From Candidatus Heimdallarchaeota archaeon (lineage in GTDB: Archaea > Asgardarchaeota > Heimdallarchaeia > JABLTI01): 64,000 bases of DNA. How positions within the stretch are numbered: position 1 is the first letter of the stretch; each line of letters opens with the position of its first letter. Below, one piece after another: positions 3,461 to 26,154 of the stretch. The stretch is from assembly GCA_019058275.1 (NCBI GenBank), contig JAHLVW010000045.1, positions 1-64,000 of the forward strand. Reading direction: 5' to 3'. The position numbers were made by a program, and so were the translations under genes. The notes under the pieces were generated by a model, which saw nothing but the letters and a program-made list of their open reading frames with translations, searched no databases and was not told the origin of the DNA.

Positions 3461-5087
3461 TTAATCTTTTAAAACAAAAAATTCTCGAACGTATTTATTT
3501 AATGTTGAATTGTATATTTTGTCTGAATCAACTTTTATTGAAAAATAATCGCTTAGGTTTTCCTTATATTGCTGTAACGTTTGATTGGGTAAACCAATTA
3601 TCATAATTATCCCACTTTCCTTGAATTGTAATCCCTTCAGCAATTTTAGTTGTGAATCATTTGGTTGAGTATCCAAGAAACAAGAAGAAATACCTGAATG
3701 CAATTGCAATTTTTTATGAGAGGATAATAAGTCAATAAGAGTTAGTTTGTTATGTGTAAGAAATCGAAGAAGAATTGAAATGGGAATAGCAGTGAAATTC
3801 CTCTCATAATTTGATAGATTTTCTCGAGATGTTTTTAATATTAAAGCTAATTCTTGCTGAGTATAATTGTTTTGTTTTCTGATGGTGTAAAGATATTCAC
3901 CAAGTTGTGATGCTCTTAAGGTGTCAAGTTTGGAAAAGTCAAAATATCCTCGCTTTATTTTCTCATCCTTAAAATTAACAATTTGACCAGTCCAAGATCC
4001 TTTTTTTCTAATGGTAGAAAGTCGAGGTGAATAATTATAGGTTTTTTTTTGTAAAAGCAAATGTAATTCTTGTTGTTTTTGTGGATGATTTGAACCTATA
4101 AGAGATGCAAACTGCTTTCTTGAATGACCAGCAACAGTTAAATTAAAAGTAGTACCGCCAAAAAACCGTATACTCATAAAAGCGATGTTTTATATTATAA
4201 TCATTTAAGTAATGAGAAAAGTCAGAACGAAGCTGTTTCGATGCTGTACCAAATCCTATAACGTTTTTATAACTTCCATCAGCATCCATTAATCCAGCCC
4301 AAAAATTTCTCCGTAAAAGATCATTACTTTGAAAAATAAGTGGTTCACGTAATGCGGGATATTTTCGCTCATTAATCGGTTGTCCGGTTAAGAAATTAAA
4401 GAAACGAACAAGCCATTTCCCAAGGATATTTACATTCCATGCATTAGCATTTGATTGCTCAAAAAATTCAGTTTTGGAGTTGAATAACATTACTAACATC
4501 TGCGCTAAATTTTCTATATGTTCTTTAGAAGAATCAATGATATTAATGAAATACTCTGCAATATGACCATCACCCATAATCACTCCCGTGAGATAAGCCA
4601 ACTTTTCACTCAAATAAAGTGGTAGCTGGAAATTTTCACCTCGAGCAGATTGAAATTGTATAAACTCCTTGTCTGTAAAATAATCCAACCAATCATCAAC
4701 CAATCGAAAAAGTGGAAATGGTAACCATTGTTGATCAATTAAATAATTAATAATTTTTTTTTGCCAATCAAGAATAGATCTAATATAATTAGAATTCTGA
4801 AAATAATGTTGGATTTTTTCTGCCAAAGCAAGAGATTGCTTTCTAATTTTTGTAATATGCTCATTATCTAGAAGGATGTAGGGAAATGATTGTAAGATGC
4901 GTTCTCCGGTTAGAAAATCTATTTTACGAATCATTATAGAATATAGGAGCAGCTGCTTTCCTTGTGTTGTGTATGAATCTCTTCTACCCAACTCCAACAA
5001 TTCATTAGCAGTAAACCAAGTGTTTTGTGCAAGCGGTTCAGGATCCATTAGTAAAGGATCAGTTCGCCAGTGAAGAAACTCTTGCAT
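3461..5087 (-). pseudogene. LAGLIDADG endonuclease-like protein with XRE-type HTH, split by a frameshift (ORFs 4143..5087 and 3461..4177)
   Basis: Two LAGLIDADG motifs (LAYLTGVIMGDG, FWAGLMDADGS). HTH LYTIRKQNNYTQQELALILKTSRENLSNYERN in the downstream ORF. Removing one base from the A6 run at 4160-4165 fuses the ORFs (…YTVFGGTTFNL…). Confidence 0.75.
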
Positions 5088-5314
5088 AGCATTCTCCTAC
5101 AAAATTATAGTGTCCTCACTTTTTAAATACCTCTTGGAAAAGCTGTACGAATAACTAATTAGTCAGTTATTCTTTTAAACAAACATCGAATACTTTCGGC
5201 AATCTCCTTATAAAAACAATATAAATCTAGCTAAACATAAATAATAACGAAGAAAAAATACTCTCAAAAGGATACCGACTAACAAAGAAAGCTTACAGAA
5301 CACTCATAGCTGAT

Positions 5315-6733
5315 TTGCCAAAAAACGAATTAGAGAAAGCATTGGAACAAGTAAGACAAATAACGAAACCTCAAATAAAGAAAAGACCACTGCAACTAAC
5401 CACAAAAGTAAAGATCGTTCCCACAAAAGAACAAGAAGAAATCTTGTGGGTATTATCAGAAAACTGTCGGTTAATTCATTACTTTGCAAATAAAGAACGA
5501 AAAGAATGGTGGGACAAAAACAAACACTTGCCAAAGAAGAAAAGAGACAAAGAAAACAAATCAACCTATAACAAACAATCAGCACAATTACCAAAACTAA
5601 AAGAAAAATACTCTCGCTATAAACAAAATTACTCCAAAACACTACAAGACATTCTTAAACAATTAGAAGCTGATTACAAATCGTTTCATGCTCTCAGAAA
5701 AAGTGGCGATAATAACGCACAACCACCAAAATACAAATCGAAGGAATATTTCACAACAATGCATTATAATCAAAGCGGTTTCAAAATAGAAGGAACAAAA
5801 ATAACCTTGAGTCATTTCTATCCTACAAGAGAAACAAAAGAGGTAGACCTTACTTTTGAAATGCAAGGAAAATTCACTTTCACCGGTAAGAAAGTGAAAC
5901 AAGTAACAATCTATCGAGTACACAAAACAAAAGAATTCTACTTGTCGATCATTTACGAACAAAACACACCAGAGTATTTCGACAATGGTATTTATCAGAC
6001 AATAGACCTCGGACTAATAAATCTCGTTGCAGCAGTGAACAGTCATGAAGGTAAAACAATAACCATCAAGAACAAACGAGTAGATAAATACTGGCAACCA
6101 AAAATAGAGGAAGTGCAAAAGAAAAGAGATCATTACAAAAAATATTCTAATCGTTGGAAATGGTACAATGATAAAATGTGGAAAATGATCAGGAAACAAG
6201 CAAACCAAAGAAAAGATTTCCAACACAAAGTAAGCAAAAAAGTCGTCGAGAACACCAGAGCAAACATCATAATCATTGGTGATTTGAATGTTAAAGAAAT
6301 GAGTAAAAGCAAGAAAAATGATAAGAAGAAAGATAAAAGTCTTCACCGAAACATGCAAAGTAGTGGCTCATTAGGTCGCTTTGCTAGATTCTTAACCTAC
6401 AAAGCTCAACTTGCAGGTAAAAAAGTAATAAGGATCAGTGAACGAGGAACAAGTAAAAGATGCTGCTACTGTATGAAGAAGGAGAACAGAAAACTCTCCG
6501 AAAGAACTATTCAGTGTGATTGTGGGTTTGTAATAGATCGAGATACAAGTGGTACAGCTAATCTCATGCAAAGACTCCTCGCTCTCCTAGCACTATCACA
6601 AAAACGCCTTGTGGTCAGGCAACGACTCTTGAAAGATTTTCGAGAGAAGTTTTTTAGCGACACACAGCCAAACGTAAAACGAAAGTTCCTCCTCAACAGG
6701 AGTTGTGCGGACTCGCAGGGAATCACAAGTTAA
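5315..6733 (+). CDS. tnpB: IS200/IS605-family TnpB RNA-guided nuclease
   Basis: N-terminal KIVPTKEQEEIL HTH; RuvC-I IDLG; IIIGDLNVKEM; SERGTSKRCCYC and CDCG Zn finger; DRD RuvC-III. Confidence 0.9.
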   Translation: MPKNELEKALEQVRQITKPQIKKRPLQLTTKVKIVPTKEQEEILWVLSENCRLIHYFANKERKEWWDKNKHLPKKKRDKENKSTYNKQSAQLPKLKEKYSRYKQNYSKTLQDILKQLEADYKSFHALRKSGDNNAQPPKYKSKEYFTTMHYNQSGFKIEGTKITLSHFYPTRETKEVDLTFEMQGKFTFTGKKVKQVTIYRVHKTKEFYLSIIYEQNTPEYFDNGIYQTIDLGLINLVAAVNSHEGKTITIKNKRVDKYWQPKIEEVQKKRDHYKKYSNRWKWYNDKMWKMIRKQANQRKDFQHKVSKKVVENTRANIIIIGDLNVKEMSKSKKNDKKKDKSLHRNMQSSGSLGRFARFLTYKAQLAGKKVIRISERGTSKRCCYCMKKENRKLSERTIQCDCGFVIDRDTSGTANLMQRLLALLALSQKRLVVRQRLLKDFREKFFSDTQPNVKRKFLLNRSCADSQGITS

Positions 6734-7014: not shown

Positions 7015-10000
7015 TTGGATTGTATGGATGGAAAAGCAAAATTATTCCAGAAAATTACCTTAGAAAACCTAATGCTTCATGAAAATACTAAGGTAGATTT
7101 AGCAAAAGAAGCAATCACACTAATCACTGGAGCAAATGGGTCAGGTAAAACACAAGTGTTAGATGGGATTGTTATCTGTTTAGGTTACATACCAACAAGA
7201 GCAAAAGCAAAGGGGGTAGGAAGCTTAGTTGGTAAAATGGGTGAATTTGCTAAGGTAACACTAGAAGTAGCTAATCCAATAGTTAATGGAAAAAGATCTA
7301 TCTACACAATGGATCAAGATTTAAATTCAGTAATTAATTTTAATTCGTTTAATATAACAGCAAAAATATCTCAACAAGATAGTTCAATTACCTTCTACAT
7401 CAATAATTCAAGAAGAATTGTACGTGGAAGATTGGTTACAAGAAGAGATATTAGAAGAATTTTTGATACAATTGGTGTCCGTGGAGATAATAAATTAGCA
7501 TTTACAGGTGAGGGAACAGTAGATGAATTTGCTTCTAAAAGTCCAAAAAGAAAACTAGATGTTTTGTTAGAAGTAACAGGTTTGAAGCAGTACCGTGAAG
7601 AAGTCATTGCTGCACAGGAAACTCTTAAAGCTAGTATCCAAGAAATCGAACCACTAAAACGCAAGTTTGAAACAGAGAGTAAGCTTTTGAATATATGGAA
7701 CGATGCTATGAAAATCTTGAACCAAAAGAAGAAACTAATGATACTGAAGATCAAACTAGAAACAGAACTTGCTTGGTCATTTGTGAAGCGTTATGAAAAA
7801 CAATTGGAAGGGATCAATAAACAACGATTGACAATATTAAAACAAAAGAACGAAAATGAAGAAAATATAAGCAGGAAGGAAGATGAAATATCTTTAACAA
7901 AACGAAAGCTTCGAGCTCTTAATGAAGAATTACAATTAATTGAAGAACATGAACGAGTAAAAAATAGGCAGTTAATAACAGCAGAAACTCAACTAAGTTA
8001 TGAAGGAGAGAATATTAAGAATTTTAGAAAGGAAATTGATCGCTATCTCAAGCAAAAGGAAAGCATGGAGAGAATAATAGCAACTAAAGATTTGAGTGAA
8101 AAAGATAGAAAACTGCAAGACAAGCAAGAAGCTCTAGCAGTGAAAACAAAGAAACTATCAATGATGCAAGAGAAATATTCCAAAGCAGAAAAGGAACTAG
8201 AAATCTTAAGAAGGAAGATAGTAGTTGAACCAAATTTTGACTCCTTTGTATCTGATGAGGATGTATATTCAGGTAAACGTTTAACTAAATATGAAGAGGA
8301 TTTAGCAAATTCAGCAAAGATATTTTATCAAAAAATTAGAAGACAATCTTTTGATAAGGAAATTATTGGTCCAATTATATCACTTATTGATGTTAAAGAA
8401 GGAAAAGAAGGTTGGGCAAAAGCTGTAAAGAATCTTATTGGTCGTAACCTCTATGCCTTCTTAGCTAAAACAAATGAATCTTATAGGTTTGCAAAACGAT
8501 TGTATGATGAAACTTGGCCAAGATGGAAACCACCATTAACTGTTTACAGAGTATCAACAGAAGATGCGAAAACAGCAAATGAAAACAAGAAAACCCCCCC
8601 TTACAAGGAAATCCATGATTTGGTAAGTAATCTTATAACAGGAAATCCATATGCAGTTGGATTTCTAAAAAGAGTTGTTAAAGGGGGAGTTACTGAGGAT
8701 AAATATGATCCAAATATCTTAACGAACATTGCTAAAGATAGCAAGATAAACATACTAACAAAATCTGGAAAAAGCTTCTATTTATCTCAAGGTGGTTTTG
8801 GTCGACCACCAGCACCAATGAAGAATTCATTTGGGTGGAAAATTAAAATAATAGATGAAAAAGCGTTATCGACCAGTTTTGATGAAAGAAAAACCAGAGT
8901 AGCTATTGCTAGATTAGAAAGAGACACTCGTGACTTAAAAGTTGATGAAATAAAAACGCTAACAGAAATCTCTAAGTTACATCAAGAGATACAATCACTG
9001 GGAATGCCTGATGAGAAGATTATAGGGAAGATTGAAACCATAAATGAAATTATAGCAGTTATTGAAGCAAAAGCCAAAGAGTGCAAAATACATCAAAATG
9101 CGTTAAAACTTGAATTAGATGAAGTTTCAGATCGTTTCAGTGAGTATGTTATAAAGAAGGGAGACGTTAAAAACAGAATCAATGAAGTCCAAGAAACCTC
9201 TGATTTACTGAAATTAGAACTACATAGTTTACGTGAAAAATCAACAAGACTGCTAACTCTCGAGATTAATTATGATTCTGAATACGAAAACGTCTTACAA
9301 GAAATGAAGGAAAGAGAGGAAATTGCTAAGCAAAAAGGAGAGCGTCCAGAAGAAATTCGTAGCTATTCAGAAATTAGAGATGAATTAAGCAGAATTGAAG
9401 GGCATTTGGAATCTATAGGAATAAGCAATGTTGACGAAGAAAAAATCCAAGCTCAGAAAGTAAAGGTTGAATCACTACAAACATACATGGAAGAAAGAGA
9501 AGAACATATTACTAATTTAAGAGCTGATTTAGAAGCAAGATTAGCATTTTGGAATGGCGAATTACAAGAAGTAATAACAAACATTTCTAAATCAATGAAA
9601 TTGCTTCTTGGCGGAATTTTTGAAAAGACAAGGCTAAAAGTAACTAACATAAACAAACCAGATGAAGCTGGTTTGTATATTGAAGCAATCACGAAAGGAA
9701 AAGCTTATCGTGATTTCCGTGAGTTAAGTGGGGGCGAGAAAGTTCTTGCCATAGAAGGATTAATTCTAGCAATGCACACTTTAACTGATTCTCCAATACA
9801 TGCAATAGATGAATTTACACAAAGATTAGATGAGAAAAATAAAGCTCTAGCTTTTAGCATTGCTATAAGAACACAAAAACTTACAAGTGAAAATTCACGA
9901 TTTTTACCTCAATTCATACTTTTATGTCCTGATGCTTTAGATGTTGAATTATCAAATAATATCCATCATATGGTTGTTTCAGAAATGATGGTGGTGAAAG

Positions 10001-10020
10001 CAGAATATGTTAGACGATAA
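7015..10020 (+). CDS. SMC5/6-like ATPase (likely start ATG 7024)
   Basis: Walker A GANGSGKT; two coiled coils flanking a hinge (IIGPIISLIDVK..WAKAVKNLIGRNLYAF); LSGGEK signature; Walker B/D-loop AIDEFTQRLDEKN; QFILLCP in place of the His switch, as in Smc5/6. Confidence 0.85.
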   Translation: MDCMDGKAKLFQKITLENLMLHENTKVDLAKEAITLITGANGSGKTQVLDGIVICLGYIPTRAKAKGVGSLVGKMGEFAKVTLEVANPIVNGKRSIYTMDQDLNSVINFNSFNITAKISQQDSSITFYINNSRRIVRGRLVTRRDIRRIFDTIGVRGDNKLAFTGEGTVDEFASKSPKRKLDVLLEVTGLKQYREEVIAAQETLKASIQEIEPLKRKFETESKLLNIWNDAMKILNQKKKLMILKIKLETELAWSFVKRYEKQLEGINKQRLTILKQKNENEENISRKEDEISLTKRKLRALNEELQLIEEHERVKNRQLITAETQLSYEGENIKNFRKEIDRYLKQKESMERIIATKDLSEKDRKLQDKQEALAVKTKKLSMMQEKYSKAEKELEILRRKIVVEPNFDSFVSDEDVYSGKRLTKYEEDLANSAKIFYQKIRRQSFDKEIIGPIISLIDVKEGKEGWAKAVKNLIGRNLYAFLAKTNESYRFAKRLYDETWPRWKPPLTVYRVSTEDAKTANENKKTPPYKEIHDLVSNLITGNPYAVGFLKRVVKGGVTEDKYDPNILTNIAKDSKINILTKSGKSFYLSQGGFGRPPAPMKNSFGWKIKIIDEKALSTSFDERKTRVAIARLERDTRDLKVDEIKTLTEISKLHQEIQSLGMPDEKIIGKIETINEIIAVIEAKAKECKIHQNALKLELDEVSDRFSEYVIKKGDVKNRINEVQETSDLLKLELHSLREKSTRLLTLEINYDSEYENVLQEMKEREEIAKQKGERPEEIRSYSEIRDELSRIEGHLESIGISNVDEEKIQAQKVKVESLQTYMEEREEHITNLRADLEARLAFWNGELQEVITNISKSMKLLLGGIFEKTRLKVTNINKPDEAGLYIEAITKGKAYRDFRELSGGEKVLAIEGLILAMHTLTDSPIHAIDEFTQRLDEKNKALAFSIAIRTQKLTSENSRFLPQFILLCPDALDVELSNNIHHMVVSEMMVVKAEYVRR

Positions 10021-10855
10021 TAATGATATTGAAATCGAAATAACTTCAACAGATCTAATTATTGATAATAAAAAAGATGAGTCTATAGATAAGCAAAAAC
10101 CACCAAAAAAACCGGAAAAGAAGAAACAATCACAAAAAGATAGTGTTGAGAAATTATTGTGGAATGTTGCAAAGAAATACAAAACACTTTTGGATAAAGG
10201 AATTGTACCACAGATTTCTGAAAGTGAAGAAGATAGAATAGAGGTTTCGGATGCATATCAAGAAATTGAAAACAAGAGACATAGACAACTCGATGCTAGA
10301 GTCTATCAATCTCTTACGAAAATGCAAAAAACAAGAGATTCAAAAATCGCTCTAGAAGGAACAACTGAAAGAGACCGATTAAGAATGATTGCTTGGGAGG
10401 TTAAGATCAGAACGCAAGCAATTGTATTCTTTCCAGGTGATAGTACTCTTGATATGAACATGTTTAATGCTTATGATCACACTGGAATTCAGATAATTGA
10501 AGGTGATGAGAAGGAAATTCTCATTGAAGATGATATAATAGAAAATAAGGGAATTGCAATTCTAGAATCATTACCATTACGAAAACTAACAAAAGAACAG
10601 AAGGGAAAATTGAAGCAAGAATTCTTGAAGAAATTTCGTGGAAAACGATTTAAAATTACTGAATTGGAAAACAAAATTGACAGCATATCTGCTGATTTAA
10701 TTTCATTACTAGTTAGAGAAAAACAGATACTGCTTCTAAAGAGAGAACAAAATATTGTAGAAATAATGGCTTATCCAGACAAGCTAACTGAATTTAAAGA
10801 ATCAGATCTTTTAAGTCGATCTATAGTACTAACTCCTAAAAAAACAAAAAATTAG
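10007..10855 (+). CDS. Putative kleisin (Nse4/ScpA-like)
   Basis: Overlaps the SMC stop. N-terminal helical region KKYKTLL…AYQEIENKRHRQLDARVY is reminiscent of Nse4; acidic linker; C-terminal WH-like LISLLVREKQILLL. Confidence 0.5.
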   Translation: MLDDNNDIEIEITSTDLIIDNKKDESIDKQKPPKKPEKKKQSQKDSVEKLLWNVAKKYKTLLDKGIVPQISESEEDRIEVSDAYQEIENKRHRQLDARVYQSLTKMQKTRDSKIALEGTTERDRLRMIAWEVKIRTQAIVFFPGDSTLDMNMFNAYDHTGIQIIEGDEKEILIEDDIIENKGIAILESLPLRKLTKEQKGKLKQEFLKKFRGKRFKITELENKIDSISADLISLLVREKQILLLKREQNIVEIMAYPDKLTEFKESDLLSRSIVLTPKKTKN

Positions 10856-10858
10856 CAC

Positions 10859-11500
10859 ATGATTGGGGTGAAAATTGTGATAGAAAATCATATGGATAAT
10901 AAAGAGCAAAACGAGAAAAAACCAAGTGATATCGTTAAAGAACGATTAGAGGAGGATTTCGGAGATGTTGATCCTCAACTATTTATTGCATTAACATCTC
11001 GATGGCGTAGAGAAAACAGGTCACTAGCATTTGGAGTATCAAAAAGACAATTGAGAAACAAAACGGGATTGACTTTACTTGAACTTGAAATGTATTTAGA
11101 AGAGTTTGGGAAGAAAGCAAAAAGGCTAGGTTTAGAGCTAATATCTTATATCGTTGACAATGAAGTTTGGTATTGTTTAAGATCAATTTATGTTGTTCCT
11201 AATGAATTGACACTAGATGAGCAAGCAGTACTAGGAACGATTATTTTTTTGATAGAAAGGTCGAGGGATAATCGAAGAAGGGAAGAAACACCTGTTACTT
11301 CAACAATTCTTTTTGATCGTTTAGTAAAACGTGGTTATTATTCTGAATATTCATTAACAAAAATAGTGCGAACATTAGATACAGCTGGTTATATAAGAAG
11401 AAGTGGCAATAAAATTAGATATGGATCTAGAACAAAAATAGAGATTTCACCAGAGAGAAGAAAGGAGATAGCTGATAGAACTGAAGGAATGCTTCTGTGA
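10859..11500 (+). CDS. KITE protein (tandem winged helix, Nse1/Nse3-MAGE-like)
   Basis: LGLELI and LGTIIFLI helices, LDTAGYI, and IRYGSRTKIEI matching the MAGE/Nse1 G-x-R-xxx-E motif; third gene after SMC. Confidence 0.7.
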   Translation: MIGVKIVIENHMDNKEQNEKKPSDIVKERLEEDFGDVDPQLFIALTSRWRRENRSLAFGVSKRQLRNKTGLTLLELEMYLEEFGKKAKRLGLELISYIVDNEVWYCLRSIYVVPNELTLDEQAVLGTIIFLIERSRDNRRREETPVTSTILFDRLVKRGYYSEYSLTKIVRTLDTAGYIRRSGNKIRYGSRTKIEISPERRKEIADRTEGMLL

Positions 11501-11523: not shown

Positions 11524-12009
11524 ATGGCAGTTATAACCACATCAACAGTATCAGTCCGATGCGCAGGACATAATGGTAGAGCTACTTTGAGAGAAGCTGT
11601 TGATGGTGGGTGGAGAATGTGTCGAATATGTCGAACATTCATCTGCCCCAAATGTATACAAGAATTTGATCTAAAAATGATGGGAGCTTGTCCCTCCTTT
11701 ATCTTTGGTATAGATAAACACCAATTAAGTCCTGGTCCTATTCCTGTAGAAGAGGTTATTTTGTATGTGGAATCCAACAAACCTGATGGAATAACAGGGG
11801 GATTATTGGAATCATTATTTTTTGAGGATGAACAAATGGGATTTATGCCATTTTATGCTGCAGTAGAAACGAAAGAAGAAGAAGATGATGATGAGGATGA
11901 ATTAACTCTCGAACCTCCAAAAATACAAGAAGAAATATGGTCTTCATTTGGGTTTGTAATGACCAAACGAAGACGTGGTAAATTCATTACTTGGGAGAAA
12001 ATTGGTTAG
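11524..12009 (+). CDS. RING-like Zn-finger protein, putative E3 ligase
   Basis: CxxH…CxxC-x4-CxxC…CP…H ligand pattern, acidic tract, position in a Ubl operon. Confidence 0.6.
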   Translation: MAVITTSTVSVRCAGHNGRATLREAVDGGWRMCRICRTFICPKCIQEFDLKMMGACPSFIFGIDKHQLSPGPIPVEEVILYVESNKPDGITGGLLESLFFEDEQMGFMPFYAAVETKEEEDDDEDELTLEPPKIQEEIWSSFGFVMTKRRRGKFITWEKIG

Positions 12010-12031: not shown

Positions 12032-12628
12032 ATGAACAGCAAAAACAATCTTGCAGGGAAAAAGAAGCCGAAGAAAAATCTAGCTGAGATATATGGTGAA
12101 TCCAAAGAACAAACAAATGCTGAAACAGAAGATGAAATCACTAAAGAAAAAATTTATCTAGTATATATCCTTCATAGAGTCGTTTATGAGACTTTGTTAT
12201 TATGCAAAAAAGCTGACCCAAATGAAGCTATAGGTGTCCTATTAGGATACAAGTATCAATACGAAGATCAAAAATATGTTAAGGTTGTAGATTGGGTAAC
12301 AGGTAAAGCATACCAAAGTCATGCATTTGCGGAATTTACTCCAGATGGAGTAAGACAATATACAAGTATAATTGAAGAAAAGTATGGAGACAGTGAGAAT
12401 CGTCCAAAAATTGTTGGAATATTTCATTCCCATCCATTTGGTTCAAACCCACATTTTTCAGCAACAGATTACAATACCTTCCTAAATTTCCCTTATGATA
12501 CTGAAAATAATGTCTTTGTTTTAATCGATCCCCGTTCAAATTATTATAAATCGTATATTGTGGTCATTGATGAAAAAGGCATGAAGGATTTAAAGGAAGT
12601 AGATTGGGTAGAATACAATCCAAAATAG
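12032..12628 (+). CDS. JAB/MPN+ (JAMM) metalloprotease, deubiquitinase-like
   Basis: EAIGVLLG and VGIFHSHP-x7-S-xx-D-type motif (HSHPFGSNPHFSATD). Confidence 0.92.
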   Translation: MNSKNNLAGKKKPKKNLAEIYGESKEQTNAETEDEITKEKIYLVYILHRVVYETLLLCKKADPNEAIGVLLGYKYQYEDQKYVKVVDWVTGKAYQSHAFAEFTPDGVRQYTSIIEEKYGDSENRPKIVGIFHSHPFGSNPHFSATDYNTFLNFPYDTENNVFVLIDPRSNYYKSYIVVIDEKGMKDLKEVDWVEYNPK

Positions 12629-12644
12629 CTAGACGTGATCTAAA

Positions 12645-13577
12645 ATGACTGATGAGAAACCAGCAACAAAAGGAAATCCATCAATAGATGCGAAATATGG
12701 AGCAAATGCATCTGCAAAGAGCAATGAGTTGCTAAGTATTGGTTTCTTTGAGGAAGACATTGAAGATAGAACTAGAAGATATTTTGGAATAGAAAATCTA
12801 CAGAAAATAAAAGAAAGTACAATACTTTGTGTTGGAGCTGGAGCAGTAGGAAATGAAATCTGTAAGAATCTGGGTATGCTTGGTGTAGGACATATTAGAT
12901 TAGTAGATTTTGATATTGTGAGTAAATCAAACATAAACAGGTGTATCTTTTTTAGACCAGGAGATCACAAAGAAATTTCCAAAGTTAATGCATTAGCAGA
13001 AAGACTGCCAGAGGTTGCTCCAAATACGAAAATAACTCCATATGAATGTCGAATTGAAGAAGCTCCACTAGAAGTCTATCAAGCTGACCTAATTATAATG
13101 GCATTAGATAATGATTATGCAAGATATATGCTGAATTATGGAAACTTAATGCAAGAACAACCCATTCCAATAATTAATGGTGCTATGGGTAGATCATTTC
13201 TGGAAGTCCAAGTATACCATCCAGGTAAATCTGCCTGTCCGGTTTGCTTGTGGAGTGAAGATTATTATCGAGCGATAATGAACCATCAAGTTGCCTTGAA
13301 TTGTGATGAATTCTTTATTGAAACGTTACCAAAATTCCCAATGATAAGTACCCTAACCTCTATTGTAGGGGGAATAATGTCCGTCGAAGCAACTAAAGTG
13401 CTAATAAGTAGAGATGAAAAGGGTACGTACTCGGATGTTACCAAAGGTCAAGAACCTAACTTCGGTAAAATGATTAGATATGATCTAAGGAATCATGAAT
13501 TTATATTCGGAGATATATTAGCAAATCCAAAATGCGTAGATGTAACTTGCAGAGCAAGAAGAAGAAATAAAGTATAA
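12645..13577 (+). CDS. E1 ubiquitin-like activating enzyme (ThiF/UBA)
   Basis: GAGAVG, DFDIVSKSNINR, ALDN, Zn ligands CPVC and C-terminal Cys pair, candidate catalytic Cys in ALNCDEF. Confidence 0.92.
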   Translation: MTDEKPATKGNPSIDAKYGANASAKSNELLSIGFFEEDIEDRTRRYFGIENLQKIKESTILCVGAGAVGNEICKNLGMLGVGHIRLVDFDIVSKSNINRCIFFRPGDHKEISKVNALAERLPEVAPNTKITPYECRIEEAPLEVYQADLIIMALDNDYARYMLNYGNLMQEQPIPIINGAMGRSFLEVQVYHPGKSACPVCLWSEDYYRAIMNHQVALNCDEFFIETLPKFPMISTLTSIVGGIMSVEATKVLISRDEKGTYSDVTKGQEPNFGKMIRYDLRNHEFIFGDILANPKCVDVTCRARRRNKV

Positions 13578-13671: not shown

Positions 13672-13983
13672 ATGAGCGAAGAAATATGGCGTGAAATTAT
13701 AATCGACGTTGAGCCAAGACAAAAAGAGTTTAGAGTAGCAGTTGAAGAAGAATCAACAATTGACGAAGTAGTGAAAACCCTAGTACAACGATGTGTTGAT
13801 GAAGGGGTTGACATAAACAAATGGGCTAAAGAAAAGGTAGGACAACCAAATGTTAGCTTTATACTCATGCGTAAAATGACAGGAAATACAGCCTTACCAC
13901 CAGCCACAACATTTGGTTCATTGGAACCAACACTAGAATCAAATGAACGATTCAAATTAGATGCTTGTGCTCAAGTAGGATAA
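13672..13983 (+). CDS. Ubiquitin-like beta-grasp protein
   Basis: 103 aa, between E1 and E2, beta-beta-alpha pattern (STIDEVVKTL), C-terminus …LDACAQVG. Confidence 0.75.
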   Translation: MSEEIWREIIIDVEPRQKEFRVAVEEESTIDEVVKTLVQRCVDEGVDINKWAKEKVGQPNVSFILMRKMTGNTALPPATTFGSLEPTLESNERFKLDACAQVG

Positions 13984-14088: not shown

Positions 14089-14844
14089 ATTTCCAGGACA
14101 AACTTTCCTGCAACGGTAGTAAATGCAAGAATTGCTGAATCTATTTCAGTATTTTATGATTCAATGGAGGAATTCTTCAAGAAAAAAGAATGGAAATGGA
14201 CTCCAATTAGAAGAACAGGTGACAAATGGATTCAGGAAGACTATTCAGTTGAAATAAGGGGTAGATACAAAGACGGTGCATATAGAGACATATTATTCTC
14301 AATAAGAAGAACACCGGGCTTAACTGGACAATCAAACAATAGAAATCATCTAAATGTGGGATTTGAACATAAATTCTCAATATACTTACCAAGGGAATAC
14401 CCCGCAAACCTTTCTCATATCAAAATGAGAGCTGTGACTAATTTATGGCATCCTAGGATTTCTATGGGAAGACATGGTGAAGCTTGCATTACAGTTAATG
14501 GTGAAGTAGATAGAATACTAGTTGACATTTTATATCATATACTAATGGATCCTAAAAGAATACGACCACCAAAACTGTATCCTAAAGAGGATTCAGGAAT
14601 GAATACTATGGCTATGCGTTGGTTTGAAAAGGATGCAAATAACGTCCATAATATGATGCAAGCAAAATGGGATTCAGTTCATGATAAAGCTTCTATTAAA
14701 GAAAGTGGTGGAATAAAAATCATTGATGGCGAAAAGCAAGAGAAAATGAAAACAGAAGACGAAAGAAGAACAATTCGAATAATGCCTCGAGAAGAGAAGA
14801 AAGAAGACAAAAAGGAAAAGAAAGGAGGTGTTAGAATCATATGA
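14089..14844 (+). CDS. E2 ubiquitin-conjugating enzyme-like protein with low-complexity tail (track start 14164; probable ATT start 14089)
   Basis: LPREYP and LWHPRI…GEAC (catalytic Cys). Frame is open back to 14083, with RBS GGTGA at 14078-14082. Confidence 0.8.
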   Translation: MSRTNFPATVVNARIAESISVFYDSMEEFFKKKEWKWTPIRRTGDKWIQEDYSVEIRGRYKDGAYRDILFSIRRTPGLTGQSNNRNHLNVGFEHKFSIYLPREYPANLSHIKMRAVTNLWHPRISMGRHGEACITVNGEVDRILVDILYHILMDPKRIRPPKLYPKEDSGMNTMAMRWFEKDANNVHNMMQAKWDSVHDKASIKESGGIKIIDGEKQEKMKTEDERRTIRIMPREEKKEDKKEKKGGVRII

Positions 14845-15137
14845 AACAAAAGAAGACTGAGCTAAGTAAAGAGGAATCATTGGATTTTGCATATGAGGTT
14901 AGCTCCTTAAGTAATGATGAGGAAACAATTGATGAAATATTCCGAGAGAATGATTTAATGGAGGAATTTGAAGAGGAAGTTGAAAAACCAAGTACAATAA
15001 AAATCATCTCTGAACGAGCTATGGAAATAAAAAAAGTTCCTCCACCAAACTATTCACCTTATTTTAGATGTATTCTACATTTCAGAGGAAAGAATATCAC
15101 AAAAAGAAAATTGCTGAAAACTGAAGGACAACATTAG
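14841..15137 (+). CDS. Small acidic/basic hypothetical protein, last gene of the SMC-Ubl operon
   Basis: ATGA overlap with E2; GGAGGTG RBS upstream. Confidence 0.65.
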   Translation: MKQKKTELSKEESLDFAYEVSSLSNDEETIDEIFRENDLMEEFEEEVEKPSTIKIISERAMEIKKVPPPNYSPYFRCILHFRGKNITKRKLLKTEGQH

Positions 15138-15289
15138 GCATCTAATTCTTATTTTTGTTGAATTTTTATCTTATACTTTCCAAAGATTCAAAAATCAATT
15201 GTTTTCATCATTTATATCTGAGTAAAGATAAAAGAGATTTAAACCGATATAAGAACGTGAAAATCGATTATTATAGGAAGTTGATAATT

Positions 15290-24001: not shown

Positions 24002-24400
24002 ATGTTACCAAGATTATTAAACAAAGTTGTAGATGCTTCTTACTACAAACTATGCGGTGAAAAAATGGTTAATTTACGAACTGAAAATATCCGATGTATA
24101 CTTTGCAATAAACAGCTAAGCTTATTCTTGAATAGTAATAATGAACTATTCATCTGCTCAGTATGTCAAGCCTATTTTTGCCCTGAATGTTTGGATGCAA
24201 TTAAGAACTACCAGCTTTGTCCAGCTGCAAGATTATTAGGAGCCAATGAACACGAGCTAAAATTCCTAAAAATGCTTCCATCAAGACCTTTGGAAACGAG
24301 AAGACAAATTGTTCAAAATAATCAGAGTGAAACTGTAAAGATTCTACCTAAGAAAACAGTTAGGATTTTGGACACGAAAAAGAAAACAGACAAAAAGTAA
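24002..24400 (+). CDS. RING-like Zn-finger protein, paralog of 11524..12009 (start probably 24065)
   Basis: CILC…CSVC-x4-CPEC…CP…G…HEL. Confidence 0.65.
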   Translation: MLPRLLNKVVDASYYKLCGEKMVNLRTENIRCILCNKQLSLFLNSNNELFICSVCQAYFCPECLDAIKNYQLCPAARLLGANEHELKFLKMLPSRPLETRRQIVQNNQSETVKILPKKTVRILDTKKKTDKK

Positions 24401-24426
24401 AGGAATGGTAACAGAGGAACAGGAAA

Positions 24427-26154
24427 GTGCGGATAAATCCTTTTATTTCTACAGAAGTCGGAGATATTCCATTAAAGAATCATAATGCAATAAAAACAAA
24501 AGAAAAATTACGTTTGGTTATTACACCTCAAGATCTAGACGATGAAAAATCAAGCGTAGCCTCTGTAGAAGTTCTTAATCCTTTACAGAGAAGAGTTGTT
24601 ATTAGTAAATTACCAGAAATGGATCTTTCTAAGCTAGTATATTTTGATGTAGTTATTCCTGATAATTGGATAAATGGTAACTACACTGCGAATGTTTTAG
24701 ATATAAGTAATCGAGTGGTTTGCAAATGCTACTTCACTCTTTTTGTTAATGATTCTTTACAGACATATATTACTGAAAGAACACTAACTCCTAAATGGAG
24801 AATACACTATCGACTGAAAGTTAAGAATCCAACTACGAAACCAATTGGGAATTTCTCTGCTTTTGTAGCACTACCAATTACAATTGCCCCACAACAGATA
24901 ACAAAAGAGTTAGTTATACAACCCGAAAACCAGAAAATATCTACAGATGTAGAAGGAAACAAATGGACCCACTTTGAGTTTAAAGCAATCAATCCACTAG
25001 TAGAAAAAGAAATGGGATTCTCAGCTCTTGTCGAATGTCGACCACTTGTATTCTCAAAAGAAAGTACTAAGAATTATAAAACAAATCCTTACAGTAAGAA
25101 ATTTCTGAAAAAATACTTGGATCCTGAACCACACATAGAAAGTGATCATCCAAAAATAAGAGAGCTTGCAGCAAAAATCTCGAACAAAGATCCAATAGCT
25201 TTTGCGAAGAAAGCAGCAAACATTGTTAATAGAACTATAAAATACCAAATACAACCAGGAGAATATGGAGCGGCTTTTGCTGTAGAAAAAGGAGTTGGGG
25301 ATTGCACAGAGTTTGCTGCACTGTTTGTAGCCCTTTGCAGAGCAGAAGGAATTCCAGCGCGAACGAATGGAGGATTCACATTAGCACAGCAATGGGAAAG
25401 GCATGCTACAGCTGAATTTCTTGTCAGTGGTAGATGGATACCTATAGATGTTACAGGGCATAGTGGAAGTGACTTATTCATAGGTATTTTGCCAACAAAT
25501 ATTATTATTACAAGAGGTAATTGGATGGGTGGCACATTAGCTAAGGAAGTCTCATATAGATATCAGATTATTGAGCAAACACAAAAACTGGATGTAAACA
25601 TAGAATGGAAAATTAATTTCGAATATGGTACTGCGGTTAAGAGAACACACAAAAAATCAACACCAGATGTTAAAACAATTAAAATTCTTGAACCAAAAAT
25701 TTCTGAAACTTCGAAAATAAAAATCCTAAATGAAGAATCAATTGAGAAGAGATTAACGAGTGATAAACAAGACAGAATATCCCTACAAAAAGAAACTATT
25801 AGGTTAAAGAAGTCTGACATTATAAAAATACAAAACAAGGGAACAAGCAAAGCAATAACTATCGATATAACATTTCCAGATGTAGTTAAAGCTGGTCACA
25901 TACAAAATCAGCCTGTTACAATTCGGAATAAGACTGAATCAGTTCAAACAGGGAGTTTCGAGATTAGGTTATTGGAAAATGGTATAGTCAAATTACTATC
26001 CATTAAAGGTGTAAAAATACCTTCTAATAGTTCTCTCAAGTTTAAACCAAATATCATTATTGATAAAACTGGTTCACACATACTGGAATTTGTACTATTG
26101 AATAGAATAGGTAGAACTTTGGTAAAAGTAGAGAAAACTGTCAGTGTATACTAA
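24427..26154 (+). CDS. Transglutaminase-like protein with flanking Ig-like domains
   Basis: GDCTEFAALFVALCRAEGIPAR, HATAEF and WIPID give a Cys-His-Asp triad. Confidence 0.88.
   Translation: MRINPFISTEVGDIPLKNHNAIKTKEKLRLVITPQDLDDEKSSVASVEVLNPLQRRVVISKLPEMDLSKLVYFDVVIPDNWINGNYTANVLDISNRVVCKCYFTLFVNDSLQTYITERTLTPKWRIHYRLKVKNPTTKPIGNFSAFVALPITIAPQQITKELVIQPENQKISTDVEGNKWTHFEFKAINPLVEKEMGFSALVECRPLVFSKESTKNYKTNPYSKKFLKKYLDPEPHIESDHPKIRELAAKISNKDPIAFAKKAANIVNRTIKYQIQPGEYGAAFAVEKGVGDCTEFAALFVALCRAEGIPARTNGGFTLAQQWERHATAEFLVSGRWIPIDVTGHSGSDLFIGILPTNIIITRGNWMGGTLAKEVSYRYQIIEQTQKLDVNIEWKINFEYGTAVKRTHKKSTPDVKTIKILEPKISETSKIKILNEESIEKRLTSDKQDRISLQKETIRLKKSDIIKIQNKGTSKAITIDITFPDVVKAGHIQNQPVTIRNKTESVQTGSFEIRLLENGIVKLLSIKGVKIPSNSSLKFKPNIIIDKTGSHILEFVLLNRIGRTLVKVEKTVSVY

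What the first reader, a model, noticed from the sequence alone, without database searches (positions are those of the whole stretch)
7015..10020. SMC has Smc5/6-specific signatures rather than canonical SMC or Rad50 ones
Seen: N-terminal LENLMLH…GANGSGKT…ICLG…RAK; hinge GPI…WAKAV…GRNLYAF; DEFTQRLDEKN; QFILLCP. Known: Smc5/6 have LENF-x2-H, DEINQGMD or DEFDVFMD, and QxxxxTP in place of the H-loop His; Rad50 has a central CxxC hook, which is absent here. At about 1000 aa it is shorter than canonical Smc. Inference: a homodimeric pre-duplication Smc5/6 relative.
Basis: partly seen in the sequence, partly recalled or inferred. Interest (0 to 1): 0.75.

Follow-up and report, generated by a model that had tools for sequence, protein, structure and literature searches.

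The report
Asgard SMC5/6-type SMC protein
This gene encodes a third, short SMC chromosome-organising ATPase of a Heimdall-type Asgard archaeon that belongs to the already described archaeal "SMC5/6-related" group, and its conserved neighbours (a kleisin-sized protein, an Nse1-like kite, a RING-like zinc protein and a ubiquitin-like conjugation set) are the more interesting part.

Summary
ORF 7015-10020 (+; likely start ATG 7024, 998 aa) carries every quoted motif and has no CxxC hook.

The genome also holds a canonical SMC-ScpA pair, one ScpB and Mre11-Rad50, so this is a separate third SMC-superfamily ATPase.

- **Profile search:** a family profile matches yeast Smc6 end to end at 160 bits. 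The next non-Smc6 chains reach 102 bits or less.
- **Trees:** head-plus-hinge ML trees (LG+C20) put the family in an Smc5/6-type superclade, apart from canonical SMC and Rad50 (UFBoot/SH-aLRT 92-95/80-85). An AU test does not reject the alternative (p 0.33).
- **Position inside that clade:** the family is its deepest branch. Two other archaeal lineages sit closer to eukaryotic Smc5/Smc6 (97/94).
- **Prior work:** archaeal "SMC5/6-related" SMCs and their operons are published (Yoshinaga & Inagaki 2021; van Hooff et al. 2024/25). The finding is therefore a new member of a known kind.

What may be new:
- A conserved four-gene operon: SMC, kleisin-sized protein, Nse1-like kite, RING-like zinc protein.
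- Linkage to JAB, E1, Ubl and E2-like genes in three layouts, also on Planctomycetota-labelled contigs.
- A Q-loop that lacks the usual glutamine.

The parts
7015..10020 (+). SMC5/6-type SMC ATPase, 1001 codons from TTG 7015; likely start ATG 7024 (998 aa)
   Evidence: ORF and translation. Pfam SMC_N and AAA_23. Identical 998-aa database proteins. Profile match to Smc6. Trees.
7060..7206 (+). N-terminal head motifs: LENLMLH (Smc6-like NFMxH), Walker A GANGSGKT, ICLG, conserved Arg in RAK
   Evidence: N18, H22, G39, N41, G42, G44, K45 and G57 are invariant; R62 is conserved in at least 90% of the family.
7498..7518 (+). Q-loop position AFTGEGT: the usual glutamine is Glu166; Thr164 is invariant in the family
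   Evidence: Alignment with Smc5, Smc6, canonical SMC and Rad50. HMMER alignment to yeast Smc6.
8350..8874 (+). Hinge region (about residues 446-620) with IIGPI...W-AKAV...GRNLYAF, no CxxC; boundaries approximate
   Evidence: Aligns with the yeast Smc6 hinge (AIGPLG...EKW...LNAFV). Alignment. No PF06470 hit. No CxxC.
9724..9741 (+). ABC signature motif LSGGEK
   Evidence: S905, G907 and E908 are invariant.
9796..9840 (+). Walker B and D-loop IHAIDEFTQRLDEKN; DEF as in Smc6, Gln936 at the position of the Gln in Smc5 DEINQGMD
   Evidence: D932, E933, Q936 and D939 are invariant.
9907..9930 (+). H-loop position PQFILLCP: no His, Pro972 as in Smc5/6 Q-x4-TP, followed by a stretch 6-7 residues shorter than in canonical SMC and Rad50
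   Evidence: Q966 and P972 are invariant.
10007..10855 (+). Kleisin candidate, 282 aa; its start overlaps the SMC stop by 14 nt
   Evidence: Conserved directly after the SMC gene in 69 loci. No Pfam or PDB sequence match. The assignment is by position, size and published operon structure, so it is inferred.
10859..11500 (+). Kite protein (tandem winged helix), Nse1-like, without a RING
   Evidence: AF2 model, pLDDT 89. VIA-align best full-length matches: Nse1 7dg2_A (Z 11.1, rmsd 4.2, 161 aligned) and 5hvq_C (Z 10.7), against ScpB 3w6j_C (Z 8.8, 140 aligned) and JetB 8as8_C (Z 8.3). Foldseek agrees.
11524..12009 (+). Fourth operon gene: 161-aa protein with an N-terminal RING-like two-zinc domain (C13, H/C16, C33, C36, C/D41, C44, C56, H66) and a conserved C-terminal beta domain
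   Evidence: Present directly after the kite gene in 61 loci. AF2 residues 1-87 at pLDDT about 90. Fold hits are almost all RING, U-box, SP-RING or ZZ, but weak (Z 3.4-4.7; Foldseek E at least 0.3).
12032..12628 (+). JAB/MPN metalloprotease
   Evidence: Pfam Prok-JAB, E 5e-9. PADLOC JAB models.
12645..13577 (+). E1-like adenylating enzyme (ThiF family)
   Evidence: Pfam ThiF, E 1e-39.
13672..13983 (+). Candidate ubiquitin-like modifier, 103 aa, ending ...AQVG
   Evidence: Orthologues end in VG, or in VG plus 1-3 residues. No Pfam hit. Inferred.
14164..14844 (+). E2-like protein
   Evidence: Weak UQ_con hit, E 6e-4, below the cut-off. Conserved next to the Ubl candidate in 26 loci.
14841..15137 (+). 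Small conserved protein with the ...RDIPFEE.RPPNFSP... motif; function unknown
24002..26154 (+). Paralogue of the RING-like protein (24002-24400) plus a transglutaminase-core protein (24427-26154)
   Evidence: The ZNF HMM matches its positions 3-86. Pfam Transglut_core, E 9e-21. The same pair lies beside the Ubl genes in L012.

Best explanation
The gene encodes the ATPase subunit of a second SMC complex of a Heimdall-type Asgard archaeon. It belongs to the published archaeal 'SMC5/6-related' class.

**Inferred mechanism**
- Two copies pair through the central hinge. No second gene of this family was found in the genome.
- The arms are about 240 residues long, shorter than in canonical SMC.
- The heads engage on ATP using an intact Walker A, Walker B glutamate, signature motif and D-loop.
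- The downstream 282-aa protein closes the ring as a kleisin, and the Nse1-like kite binds it.
- The ring then holds or extrudes DNA, as other SMC complexes do.
- The family has a fourth conserved subunit gene encoding a RING-like zinc protein. The operon is repeatedly linked to JAB, E1, Ubl and E2-like genes. The complex is therefore probably coupled to Ubl conjugation, either as an E3-like scaffold or as a target.

**Shown here:** sequence motifs, family membership, gene order, the kite fold, and the distribution.

**Inferred:** homodimer, kleisin role, DNA activity, E3 role.
For: - All motifs are present and conserved.
- The genome separately holds a canonical SMC with SMC_hinge plus ScpA (C105), one ScpB (C22) and Mre11-Rad50 (C69).
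- The family profile against the PDB gives yeast Smc6 160 bits in one alignment over positions 8-957, and human SMC6 131. Next come Smc4 102, Pyrococcus Smc 95 and Smc5 86.
- In the 5.8-billion-protein search, the first non-family hits are plant SMC6A (158 bits) and fungal Rad18/Smc6.
- Traits shared with Smc5/6:
  - NF[MK]xH as in Smc6
  - DEF plus the Gln of the Smc5 D-loop
  - Q-x4-[TCA]P in place of the H-loop
  - a 6-7 residue shorter segment after it, compared with canonical SMC and Rad50
  - an Smc6-like hinge start, IGP...W...AF
- Careful ML trees (LG+C20+F+G4 PMSF, 483-492 columns) separate {family + Smc5 + Smc6 + two archaeal lineages} from {canonical SMC + Rad50}. Support is 95/83, 92/80 and 92/85. 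The family itself is 100/100 and canonical SMC 98-100/99.
- The kite model matches Nse1 best (Z 11.1 and 10.7 over about 160 residues).
- The SMC, kleisin-sized, kite and zinc-protein order recurs in about 60 loci.
- Published work describes SMC5/6-related SMC, kleisin and kite operons in TACK and Asgard archaea (PMC8665677; 10.1101/2024.01.07.573240).
Against: - The AU test does not reject a tree that holds the family with canonical SMC (delta lnL 2.8, p 0.331).
- The grouping depends on the very long Rad50 root, and both the family and Smc5/6 are long branches.
- Region-wise hhalign scores are close:
  - N-head: Smc6 167, archaeal SMC 145
  - hinge: Smc6 56, bacterial SMC 50
  - C-head: archaeal SMC 104, Smc5 95, Smc6 89
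- The Q-loop glutamine present in Smc5, Smc6, canonical SMC and Rad50 is replaced (E166; E, A or Q in relatives).
- The kleisin candidate has no detectable sequence match to Nse4 or ScpA.
- The zinc-protein proxy was found in 36 of 151 Asgard genomes, and relatives carry Planctomycetota labels. This fits an accessory module as well as it fits an ancestral housekeeping complex.
Confidence: 0.7

Rival explanations
1. It is a fast-evolving, independently derived offshoot of canonical archaeal SMC, or a separate deep SMC lineage. On this reading the Smc5/6-like motifs are convergent or ancestral, and the position in the tree is long-branch attraction.
For: - The AU test does not reject the family held with canonical SMC (p 0.331).
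- The C-head profile is nearest archaeal canonical SMC.
- The family stem (1.15-1.33) and the Smc5 and Smc6 stems (0.95-1.5) are long.
- Loss of the H-loop His also occurs in archaeal and eukaryotic canonical SMC, which read SL in place of SH.
Against: - Canonical SMC is monophyletic without the family at 98-100/99.
- The superclade with Smc5/6 recurs in three data sets under a mixture model.
- Several independent characters agree: the TP motif, the D-loop Gln, the post-H-loop deletion against the Rad50 outgroup, the Smc6-like hinge start, and an Nse1-like kite next door.
- The canonical GSGKSN is absent.
Confidence: 0.15
2. Whatever its ancestry, the unit works as a horizontally mobile accessory or defence-like module. 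An SMC ring would recognise foreign or aberrant DNA, as Wadjet and eukaryotic Smc5/6 do, and would be coupled to a Bil/CBASS-like Ubl conjugation set. It would not be a housekeeping chromosome organiser.
For: - The distribution in Asgard is patchy: f2 11/13 and f16 19/19, but f10 0/26 and f13 0/25.
- Two separate clades labelled Planctomycetota sit inside the family. Some of them carry the whole colinear eight-gene cluster.
- The E1 and JAB proteins match PADLOC CBASS-type E1-E2 and JAB models. The SMC matches one LmuB model at 69.7 bits.
- The genome already has canonical SMC-ScpAB.
Against: - No nuclease or other effector gene was seen in the conserved set.
- No PADLOC hit for the kleisin candidate, the kite, the zinc protein, the Ubl or the E2-like protein.
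- Closely related Heimdall genomes keep the cluster in the same chromosomal synteny, S8 peptidase upstream and lyase downstream.
- JetC hits are negligible.
- The bacterial origin of the Planctomycetota-labelled contigs rests on record titles only.
Confidence: 0.2
3. It is a Rad50/SbcC-type or ClsN/Sph-type (ASRP) SMC-related repair or compartment protein.
For: Its length, about 1000 aa, is close to the genome's Rad50 (957 aa). There are weak N-terminal P-loop matches to Rad50 models.
Against: - No CxxC zinc hook, which both Rad50 and ASRPs carry (PMC9389158).
- The genome has its own Mre11-Rad50 pair.
- The neighbours are a kleisin-sized protein and a kite, not a nuclease.
- Rad50 lies outside all SMCs in the trees at 99-100.
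- hhalign scores to Rad50 are the lowest in all three regions.
Confidence: 0.02

Closest known systems
Archaeal 'SMC5/6-related' SMC and its SMC, kleisin and Nse1/3-like kite operons (Yoshinaga & Inagaki 2021, PMC8665677; van Hooff et al., bioRxiv 10.1101/2024.01.07.573240)
   Same: - A second SMC beside the canonical one in an Asgard genome.
- It groups with Smc5/6 in ML trees.
- It is followed by a kleisin-sized gene and a kite whose fold is nearest Nse1.
- It is presumed to be a homodimer.
   Different: - This family is the deepest branch of that clade in my trees. It is distinct from a 630-698 aa archaeal family and from an 832-835 aa Asgard family, both of which sit closer to Smc5/6.
- It has a conserved fourth gene for a RING-like protein and a recurrent link to Ubl-system genes. 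Neither paper mentions either, as far as I read them.
- Relatives occur on contigs labelled Planctomycetota.
Eukaryotic Smc6 and Smc5 (for example yeast 7qcd, 8i4x; human 9lwi)
   Same: - Best profile match, end to end with Smc6.
- NFMxH, the DEF and Gln D-loop, Q-x4-TP, and the hinge start IGP...W.
- Total length about 1000-1100 aa with short arms.
- The partner kite resembles Nse1.
   Different: - One gene rather than a heterodimeric pair.
- The Q-loop Gln is replaced by Glu.
- No Nse2, Nse5 or Nse6 counterparts were identified.
- The RING-like domain is a separate protein, not the C-terminus of the kite.
- Sequence identity is only about 21-27%.
Canonical SMC-ScpAB (TIGR02168/TIGR02169)
   Same: Same overall architecture (head, coiled coil, hinge, coiled coil, head) and the same ABC motifs. 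C-head profile similarity is comparable.
   Different: - Scores 88-90 bits against cut-offs of 567-729.
- No PF06470 hinge hit.
- GSGKT[QL] instead of GSGKSN.
- About 200 residues shorter.
- The genome has its own canonical set.
Archaeal ubiquitin-like operons with a small RING finger protein (Caldiarchaeum subterraneum; PMC3082918, PMC5654768)
   Same: - The neighbouring genes are of the same kinds: E1-like, E2-like, Ubl, JAB/Rpn11-like and a small zinc protein.
- The inner ligand spacing of that zinc protein, C-x2-C-x4-[C/H]-x2-C, matches the published srfp motif.
   Different: - Here the zinc protein sits in the SMC operon.
- Its last ligand pair is C-x9-H rather than C-x2-C.
- The Ubl candidate is about 103 aa and ends in a single Gly.
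- No SMC link is described in that paper.
SMC-like defence ATPases (Wadjet JetC, Lamassu LmuB)
   Same: An SMC-family ATPase with a kleisin-and-kite type partner set (Wadjet), and possible horizontal mobility.
   Different: JetC models score 23 bits or less. One LmuB model scores 69.7 bits over the N-head and coil only. There is no JetD or LmuA effector, and JetB is a weaker fold match than Nse1.

Membership tests
Archaeal SMC5/6-related SMC | Groups with eukaryotic Smc5/Smc6, apart from canonical SMC, in ML phylogeny | tested here: met
   The bipartition has 95/83, 92/80 and 92/85 (UFBoot/SH-aLRT) in three careful LG+C20 PMSF trees.
Archaeal SMC5/6-related SMC | Alternative placement with canonical SMC statistically rejected | tested here: inconclusive
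   AU test p 0.331, delta lnL 2.8. The published analysis likewise reports p-AU 0.317 for monophyly of the two eukaryotic clusters.
Archaeal SMC5/6-related SMC | Coexists with a canonical SMC in the same genome | tested here: met
   C105 carries a 1204-aa SMC with SMC_hinge plus ScpA, and C22 carries ScpB.
Archaeal SMC5/6-related SMC | Operon with a kleisin and an Nse1/3-like kite | tested here: met
   Kite: Nse1 is the best full-length structural match (Z 11.1 and 10.7, against ScpB 8.8). Kleisin: assigned by conserved position and size only, with no sequence match, so that half remains inferred.
Eukaryotic Smc5/Smc6 | Two paralogous subunits forming a heterodimer | tested here: not met
   Only one gene of the family was found in the 93%-complete genome. 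It branches outside the Smc5+Smc6 clade (97/94).
Eukaryotic Smc5/Smc6 | Q-x4-TP in place of the H-loop His, and an Smc5/6-type D-loop | tested here: met
   PQFILLCP, with P972 invariant. DEFTQRLD compares with Smc6 DEFDVFMD and Smc5 DEINQGMD.
Eukaryotic Smc5/Smc6 | Conserved Q-loop glutamine | tested here: not met
   E166 aligns with the Gln of Smc5, Smc6, canonical SMC and Rad50. Family members have E, A or Q at that position.
Eukaryotic Smc5/Smc6 | Arm-bound Nse2 SUMO ligase and the Nse5/6 loader | not testable with these tools
   No counterpart was recognised among the conserved neighbours. Binding cannot be tested here.
Canonical SMC (TIGR02168/TIGR02169, PF06470 hinge) | Reaches the curated family score and has the SMC_hinge domain | tested here: not met
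   89.6 and 88.0 bits against cut-offs of 567 and 729. No PF06470 hit at E up to 0.1. Lies outside the canonical clade at 98-100/99.
Rad50/SbcC and ASRP (ClsN/Sph) | Central CxxC zinc hook; for Rad50, an Mre11/SbcD nuclease neighbour | tested here: not met
   No CxxC among the four cysteines. The neighbours are a kleisin-sized gene and a kite gene. Mre11-Rad50 is elsewhere, on C69.
JetC/MksB/MukB | Match to JetC/MukB-type models, with JetA/B/D or MukE/F partners | tested here: not met
   PADLOC JetC models score 23 bits or less, in coiled coil only. No MukB or JetC chain appears among the 60 best PDB profile hits. No JetD-like gene is present.
RING-type E3 (for the fourth operon protein) | Cross-brace two-zinc fold with eight ligands; E2 binding | tested here: inconclusive
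   Eight conserved ligand positions. Fold hits are almost all RING, U-box or SP-RING but weak (Z 3.4-4.7; Foldseek E at least 0.3; profile against RNF4 E 0.3). E2 binding was not tested.

The most novel reading that the evidence does not exclude
The link between an SMC5/6-type complex and ubiquitin-type ligation may predate eukaryotes.

- In this prokaryotic family the Nse1-like kite gene is always followed by a gene for a RING-like protein. Together they look like a 'split Nse1'.
- The operon is repeatedly wired to a JAB, E1, Ubl and E2-like set in three different gene layouts.
- The whole cassette appears to have moved between Asgard archaea and Planctomycetota.

If this holds, the RING of Nse1 would not be a eukaryotic innovation, contrary to what is currently proposed. 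This family would then be a tractable prokaryotic model of SMC-coupled protein modification.
Probability: 0.4. Interest if true: 0.8.

Novelty: new member of a known kind. Interest (0 to 1): 0.5.

Why it matters
**The SMC alone.** It adds one more, deep-branching, member to the published archaeal SMC5/6-related class. It confirms that a Heimdall-type genome carries two full SMC sets plus Rad50. That supports, and does not change, the current view that eukaryotes inherited two SMC lineages from archaea.

**The context.** The value lies here:
- a conserved RING-like fourth subunit gene directly after an Nse1-like kite;
- a recurrent Ubl-conjugation neighbourhood;
- the same cassette on contigs labelled Planctomycetota.

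If real, this makes the origin of the E3 activities of Smc5/6 experimentally testable with small prokaryotic proteins. It also raises the question of whether such complexes guard genomes against foreign DNA.

**The Q-loop.** The missing glutamine is a further testable oddity for SMC enzymology.

Tried and rejected
- **Second family member on contig C27.** A 608-aa ORF there had given SMC_N hits. It has no BLAST similarity to this SMC or to the short family and was dropped.
- **Kleisin and kite by sequence.** Pfam scans of 43 kleisin-candidate and 35 kite sequences gave no Nse4 or ScpA hits. The kite gave only isolated weak MksE, MAGE and Nse1 hits. PDB profile searches for the kite, the kleisin candidate and the zinc protein gave nothing significant.
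- **Kite-RING fusions.** An exhaustive profile search with the zinc protein found its N-terminal domain at the C-terminus of 250-400 aa proteins. These are not Nse1-like by Pfam, and some are Ras-like GTPase fusions. No fused 'archaeal Nse1' was found this way.
- **Complex prediction (kite + kleisin candidate + zinc protein as partner).** Verdict: weak support. The score was 0.37, the best of 3 controls 0.01. In calibration the mark was reached by 58 of 80 solved complexes and 2 of 110 mismatched pairs. At 0.60 or under, however, it was reached by only 7 of those 80 and by both mismatches that passed. Runs agreed in at least 30% of contacts, and the partner's pLDDT was at least 56. The score fell to 0.01 when the kleisin candidate was replaced. 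I do not count this as evidence.
- **Foldseek on the zinc-protein model.** No match at E up to 0.001.
- **AU test.** It did not discriminate between the topologies.


Full report
**What is there**

ORF 7015-10020 (+) translates to 1001 residues from a TTG. Identical proteins on record are 998 aa and start at the ATG at 7024. The protein has four cysteines and no CxxC.

Pfam sees only SMC_N, AAA_23 and P-loop families, and no SMC_hinge. NCBIfam's two SMC equivalogs score 88-90 bits against cut-offs of 567 and 729. Rad50 models match only the P-loop end.

**Organism and paralogues**

Close homologues are labelled Heimdallarchaeota or Asgard. The genome is 4.1 Mb in 118 contigs and 92.8% complete. 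It also carries:
- a canonical 1204-aa SMC with SMC_hinge followed by ScpA, on contig C105;
- one ScpB, on C22;
- a metallophosphoesterase (Mre11-like) gene followed by a 957-aa Rad50-type ATPase, on C69.

The window protein is therefore a separate third SMC-superfamily ATPase. It is the only member of its family found in this genome. A 608-aa ORF on C27 that gave SMC_N hits is unrelated.

**Profile searches**

- A single-sequence search of PDB sequences puts yeast Smc6 first (E 9e-15, residues 10-519).
- A profile of 14 diverse family members matches yeast Smc6 at 160 bits in one alignment over positions 8-957. That alignment includes the hinge: family IIGPI...W..AV...GR.L..F against Smc6 AIGPLG...EKW...LNAFV.
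- Human SMC6 scores 131 bits. Next come Smc4 102, Pyrococcus Smc 95 and Smc5 86. No MukB or JetC chain is among the 60 best.
- In the large protein collection the profile first recovers the family (Heimdall, Hod, Promethearchaeota, Thor, Kari and Asgardarchaeia labels). After that come plant SMC6A (158 bits), fungal Rad18/Smc6 and Thermococcus SMC (142).
- One hit, P0186, proved to be an Smc5 (491 bits to human SMC5). It was used to fetch Smc5 orthologues.

**Motifs in alignment**

| Site | This family | Smc6 | Smc5 | Canonical SMC |
|---|---|---|---|---|
| N-terminal strand | NF[MK]xH | NFMCH | NFxTY | FKS[FY] |
| Walker A | GSGKT[QL] | GSGKSA | G[ST]GKS[ST] | GSGKSN |
| Signature | LSGGE[KR] | LSGGE[KR] | QSGGE[RK]S | LSGGE/MSGGE |
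| D-loop | DEFTQRLD | DEFDVFMD | DEINQGMD | DE[IV]DAxLD |
| H-loop position | PQF[IL]L[LIM][CTA]P | QxxxxTP | QxxxxTP | S[LH] or T[LH] |

After the H-loop position, the family, Smc5 and Smc6 are 6-7 residues shorter than canonical SMC and Rad50. Because Rad50 has the long form, this looks like a shared derived deletion. It does depend on the alignment.

One difference from all the others is the Q-loop. The glutamine there is Glu166 in the window protein and E, A or Q in relatives, while Thr164 is invariant.

**Trees**

I aligned 55 to 61 sequences and kept the head and hinge columns that were at least 50% filled (483-492 columns). Three rows were left out:
- L081, frameshifted at the C-terminus;
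- P0072, truncated;
- P0139, identical to L070 in the displayed blocks.

Trees were built with IQ-TREE under LG+C20+F+G4 PMSF, careful mode.

| Clade | Support (UFBoot/SH-aLRT) |
|---|---|
| Window family | 100/100 |
| Canonical SMC (bacterial, archaeal, eukaryotic SMC1-4 types) | 98-100/99 |
| {family, Smc5, Smc6, archaeal 'short' family, long-branched Hodarchaeota SMC} against {canonical, Rad50} | 95/83 with one Rad50; 92/80 with four; 92/85 after adding three Asgard f22 sequences |
| Smc5 + Smc6 + 'short' + f22, excluding the window family | 97-99/94-97 |

The window family is thus the deepest branch of the Smc5/6-type clade.

Three cautions apply:
- An AU test did not reject holding the family with canonical SMC (p 0.331).
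- With three main clades, the grouping depends on where the long Rad50 branch attaches.
- Region-wise profile-profile scores are close.

I read the phylogeny as supportive but not decisive. It agrees with the published trees and with their own inconclusive topology test.

**Neighbours**

In about 60 of 80 related loci the SMC gene is followed, often with overlapping stop and start codons, by three genes:
- a 230-290 aa protein;
- a kite of about 200 aa;
- a 150-165 aa cysteine-rich protein.

The kite model (pLDDT 89) matches Nse1 best over both winged helices. Scores are 7dg2_A Z 11.1 (rmsd 4.2, 161 aligned) and 5hvq_C Z 10.7. They lie ahead of ScpB at 8.8 and JetB at 8.3.

The kleisin role of the 282-aa protein rests on position, size and the published operon pattern only.

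The fourth protein has eight conserved zinc-ligand positions. The inner spacing, C-x2-C-x4-[C/H]-x2-C, matches the Caldiarchaeum small RING finger protein. Its N-terminal 87 residues fold with pLDDT about 90. Nearly all structural neighbours are RING, U-box, SP-RING (including Nse2) or ZZ domains. The scores are low, however: Z 3.4-4.7 and Foldseek E at least 0.3. RING-like is therefore a reasonable reading, not a demonstrated one.

**Link to a ubiquitin-like system**

Downstream in the window lie:
- JAB;
- a ThiF-type E1;
- a 103-aa protein ending ...QVG;
- an E2-like protein with a weak UQ_con hit;
- a small conserved protein.

The same genes accompany the SMC operon in three layouts:
- colinear, in the window clade of Heimdall genomes;
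- colinear again in four loci labelled Planctomycetota (L029, L030, L088, L089; JAB and ThiF confirmed by Pfam in L029);
- split into JAB-E1 plus a divergently transcribed Ubl, E2-like, small-protein and RING-paralogue operon head-to-head with the SMC gene, in loci labelled Hermod, Promethearchaeota, Odin and Thor.

Many Heimdall loci have only the four core genes within 10 kb. Linkage that survives rearrangement and distant transfer argues for functional coupling.

The window also holds a paralogue of the zinc protein next to a transglutaminase-core protein at 24002-26154.

I reached it from the homologue contexts before opening those notes.

**Distribution**

Using the zinc protein as a proxy, 36 of 151 sampled Asgard genomes have the system. 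Family f2 has it in 11 of 13 and f16 in 19 of 19. It was not found in 26 genomes of f10 or in 25 of f13.

Two groups labelled Planctomycetota sit at separate places inside the family tree. One relative lies on a 5.97-Mb scaffold. I did not verify the bacterial origin beyond the record titles.

**What it most likely does**

By analogy with all characterised SMC-kleisin-kite complexes, the likely model is:
- a hinge-joined homodimer with arms of about 240 residues;
- heads bridged by the kleisin candidate and decorated by a kite dimer;
- binding and reshaping of DNA, driven by ATP.

The ATPase site is complete except for the Q-loop glutamine. The RING-like subunit and the Ubl set suggest the complex directs, or is controlled by, Ubl conjugation. 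This parallels Nse1 (RING) and Nse2 (SP-RING) in eukaryotic Smc5/6. All of this is inference. Whether the module is housekeeping or an accessory, defence-like system is open.

**Novelty**

The class is published: 'SMC5/6-related aSMC' (PMC8665677) and SMC5/6-related operons with Nse4-like kleisins and Nse1/3-like kites in TACK and Asgard (10.1101/2024.01.07.573240). That preprint states that the Nse1 RING is absent from archaeal kites and calls it a eukaryotic innovation.

In the held library only these two papers mention both Nse1 and Asgard. I found none describing an SMC linked to RING and Ubl genes. The library is incomplete, so this is not proof of novelty.

**Verdict**

The conserved RING-like fourth gene, the Ubl linkage, the Planctomycetota-labelled copies and the altered Q-loop are the parts worth following up.

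Noticed in passing
L028-L032, L063, L067, L068, L070, L073, L081, L085, L088, L089, L091, L092: Relatives of the window SMC (28-47% identity in the best segment) lie on contigs labelled Planctomycetota or Brocadiia, one on a 5.97-Mb scaffold. L029, L030, L088 and L089 carry the colinear cluster: SMC, kleisin-sized gene, kite, zinc protein, JAB, E1, Ubl, E2-like. They form two separate groups inside the family tree.
   Followed up: partly
window 7498-7518: The Q-loop glutamine, conserved in Smc5, Smc6, canonical SMC and Rad50, is Glu166 here and E, A or Q in relatives. Thr164 is invariant.
   Followed up: partly
window 24002-26154: A paralogue of the RING-like protein sits 26 nt upstream of a transglutaminase-core protein. 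The same pair lies beside the Ubl genes in L012, and a transglutaminase gene is near the SMC operon in L011 and L013.
   Followed up: partly
P0358-P0375 (representative proteins): The N-terminal RING-like domain of the fourth operon protein recurs at the C-terminus of 250-400 aa proteins. Two of them (P0370, P0374) have Ras-like GTPase domains. None matches Nse1 by Pfam.
   Followed up: partly
window 3461-6733: An HTH protein, a LAGLIDADG protein and a TnpB/IS605-type gene lie between the S8 peptidase gene and the SMC gene. In the syntenic loci L009 and L010 the peptidase gene lies about 320-420 nt upstream of the SMC gene, with nothing between them, so this looks like an insertion.
   Followed up: no
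window 15155-17011: An aromatic amino acid lyase (HAL/PAL type) with a rubredoxin domain inserted at residues 323-369. The same combination is annotated in L009 and L010.
   Followed up: no
L093 5962-9357; L110-L112: Two further archaeal SMC5/6-type lineages have three-gene operons: a 630-698 aa SMC, and an 832-835 aa SMC found in 5 of 6 genomes of Asgard family f22. Both branch closer to eukaryotic Smc5/6 than the window family does. In my tree they sit next to Smc5 (83/84).
   Followed up: partly
P0146: A 1151-aa Hodarchaeota-labelled SMC with an SMC_hinge domain sits on a very long branch beside the window family (55/30). It may be a further paralogue.
   Followed up: no
window 13672-13983 and orthologues: The Ubl candidate ends in a single Gly (...QVG) in the Heimdall copies. 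Most Planctomycetota-labelled copies also end in Gly (...IVG), but the L088 ORF as called runs on after VVG. The Hermod and Promethearchaeota copies carry 1-3 extra residues after VG, which suggests JAB-dependent processing there.
   Followed up: no
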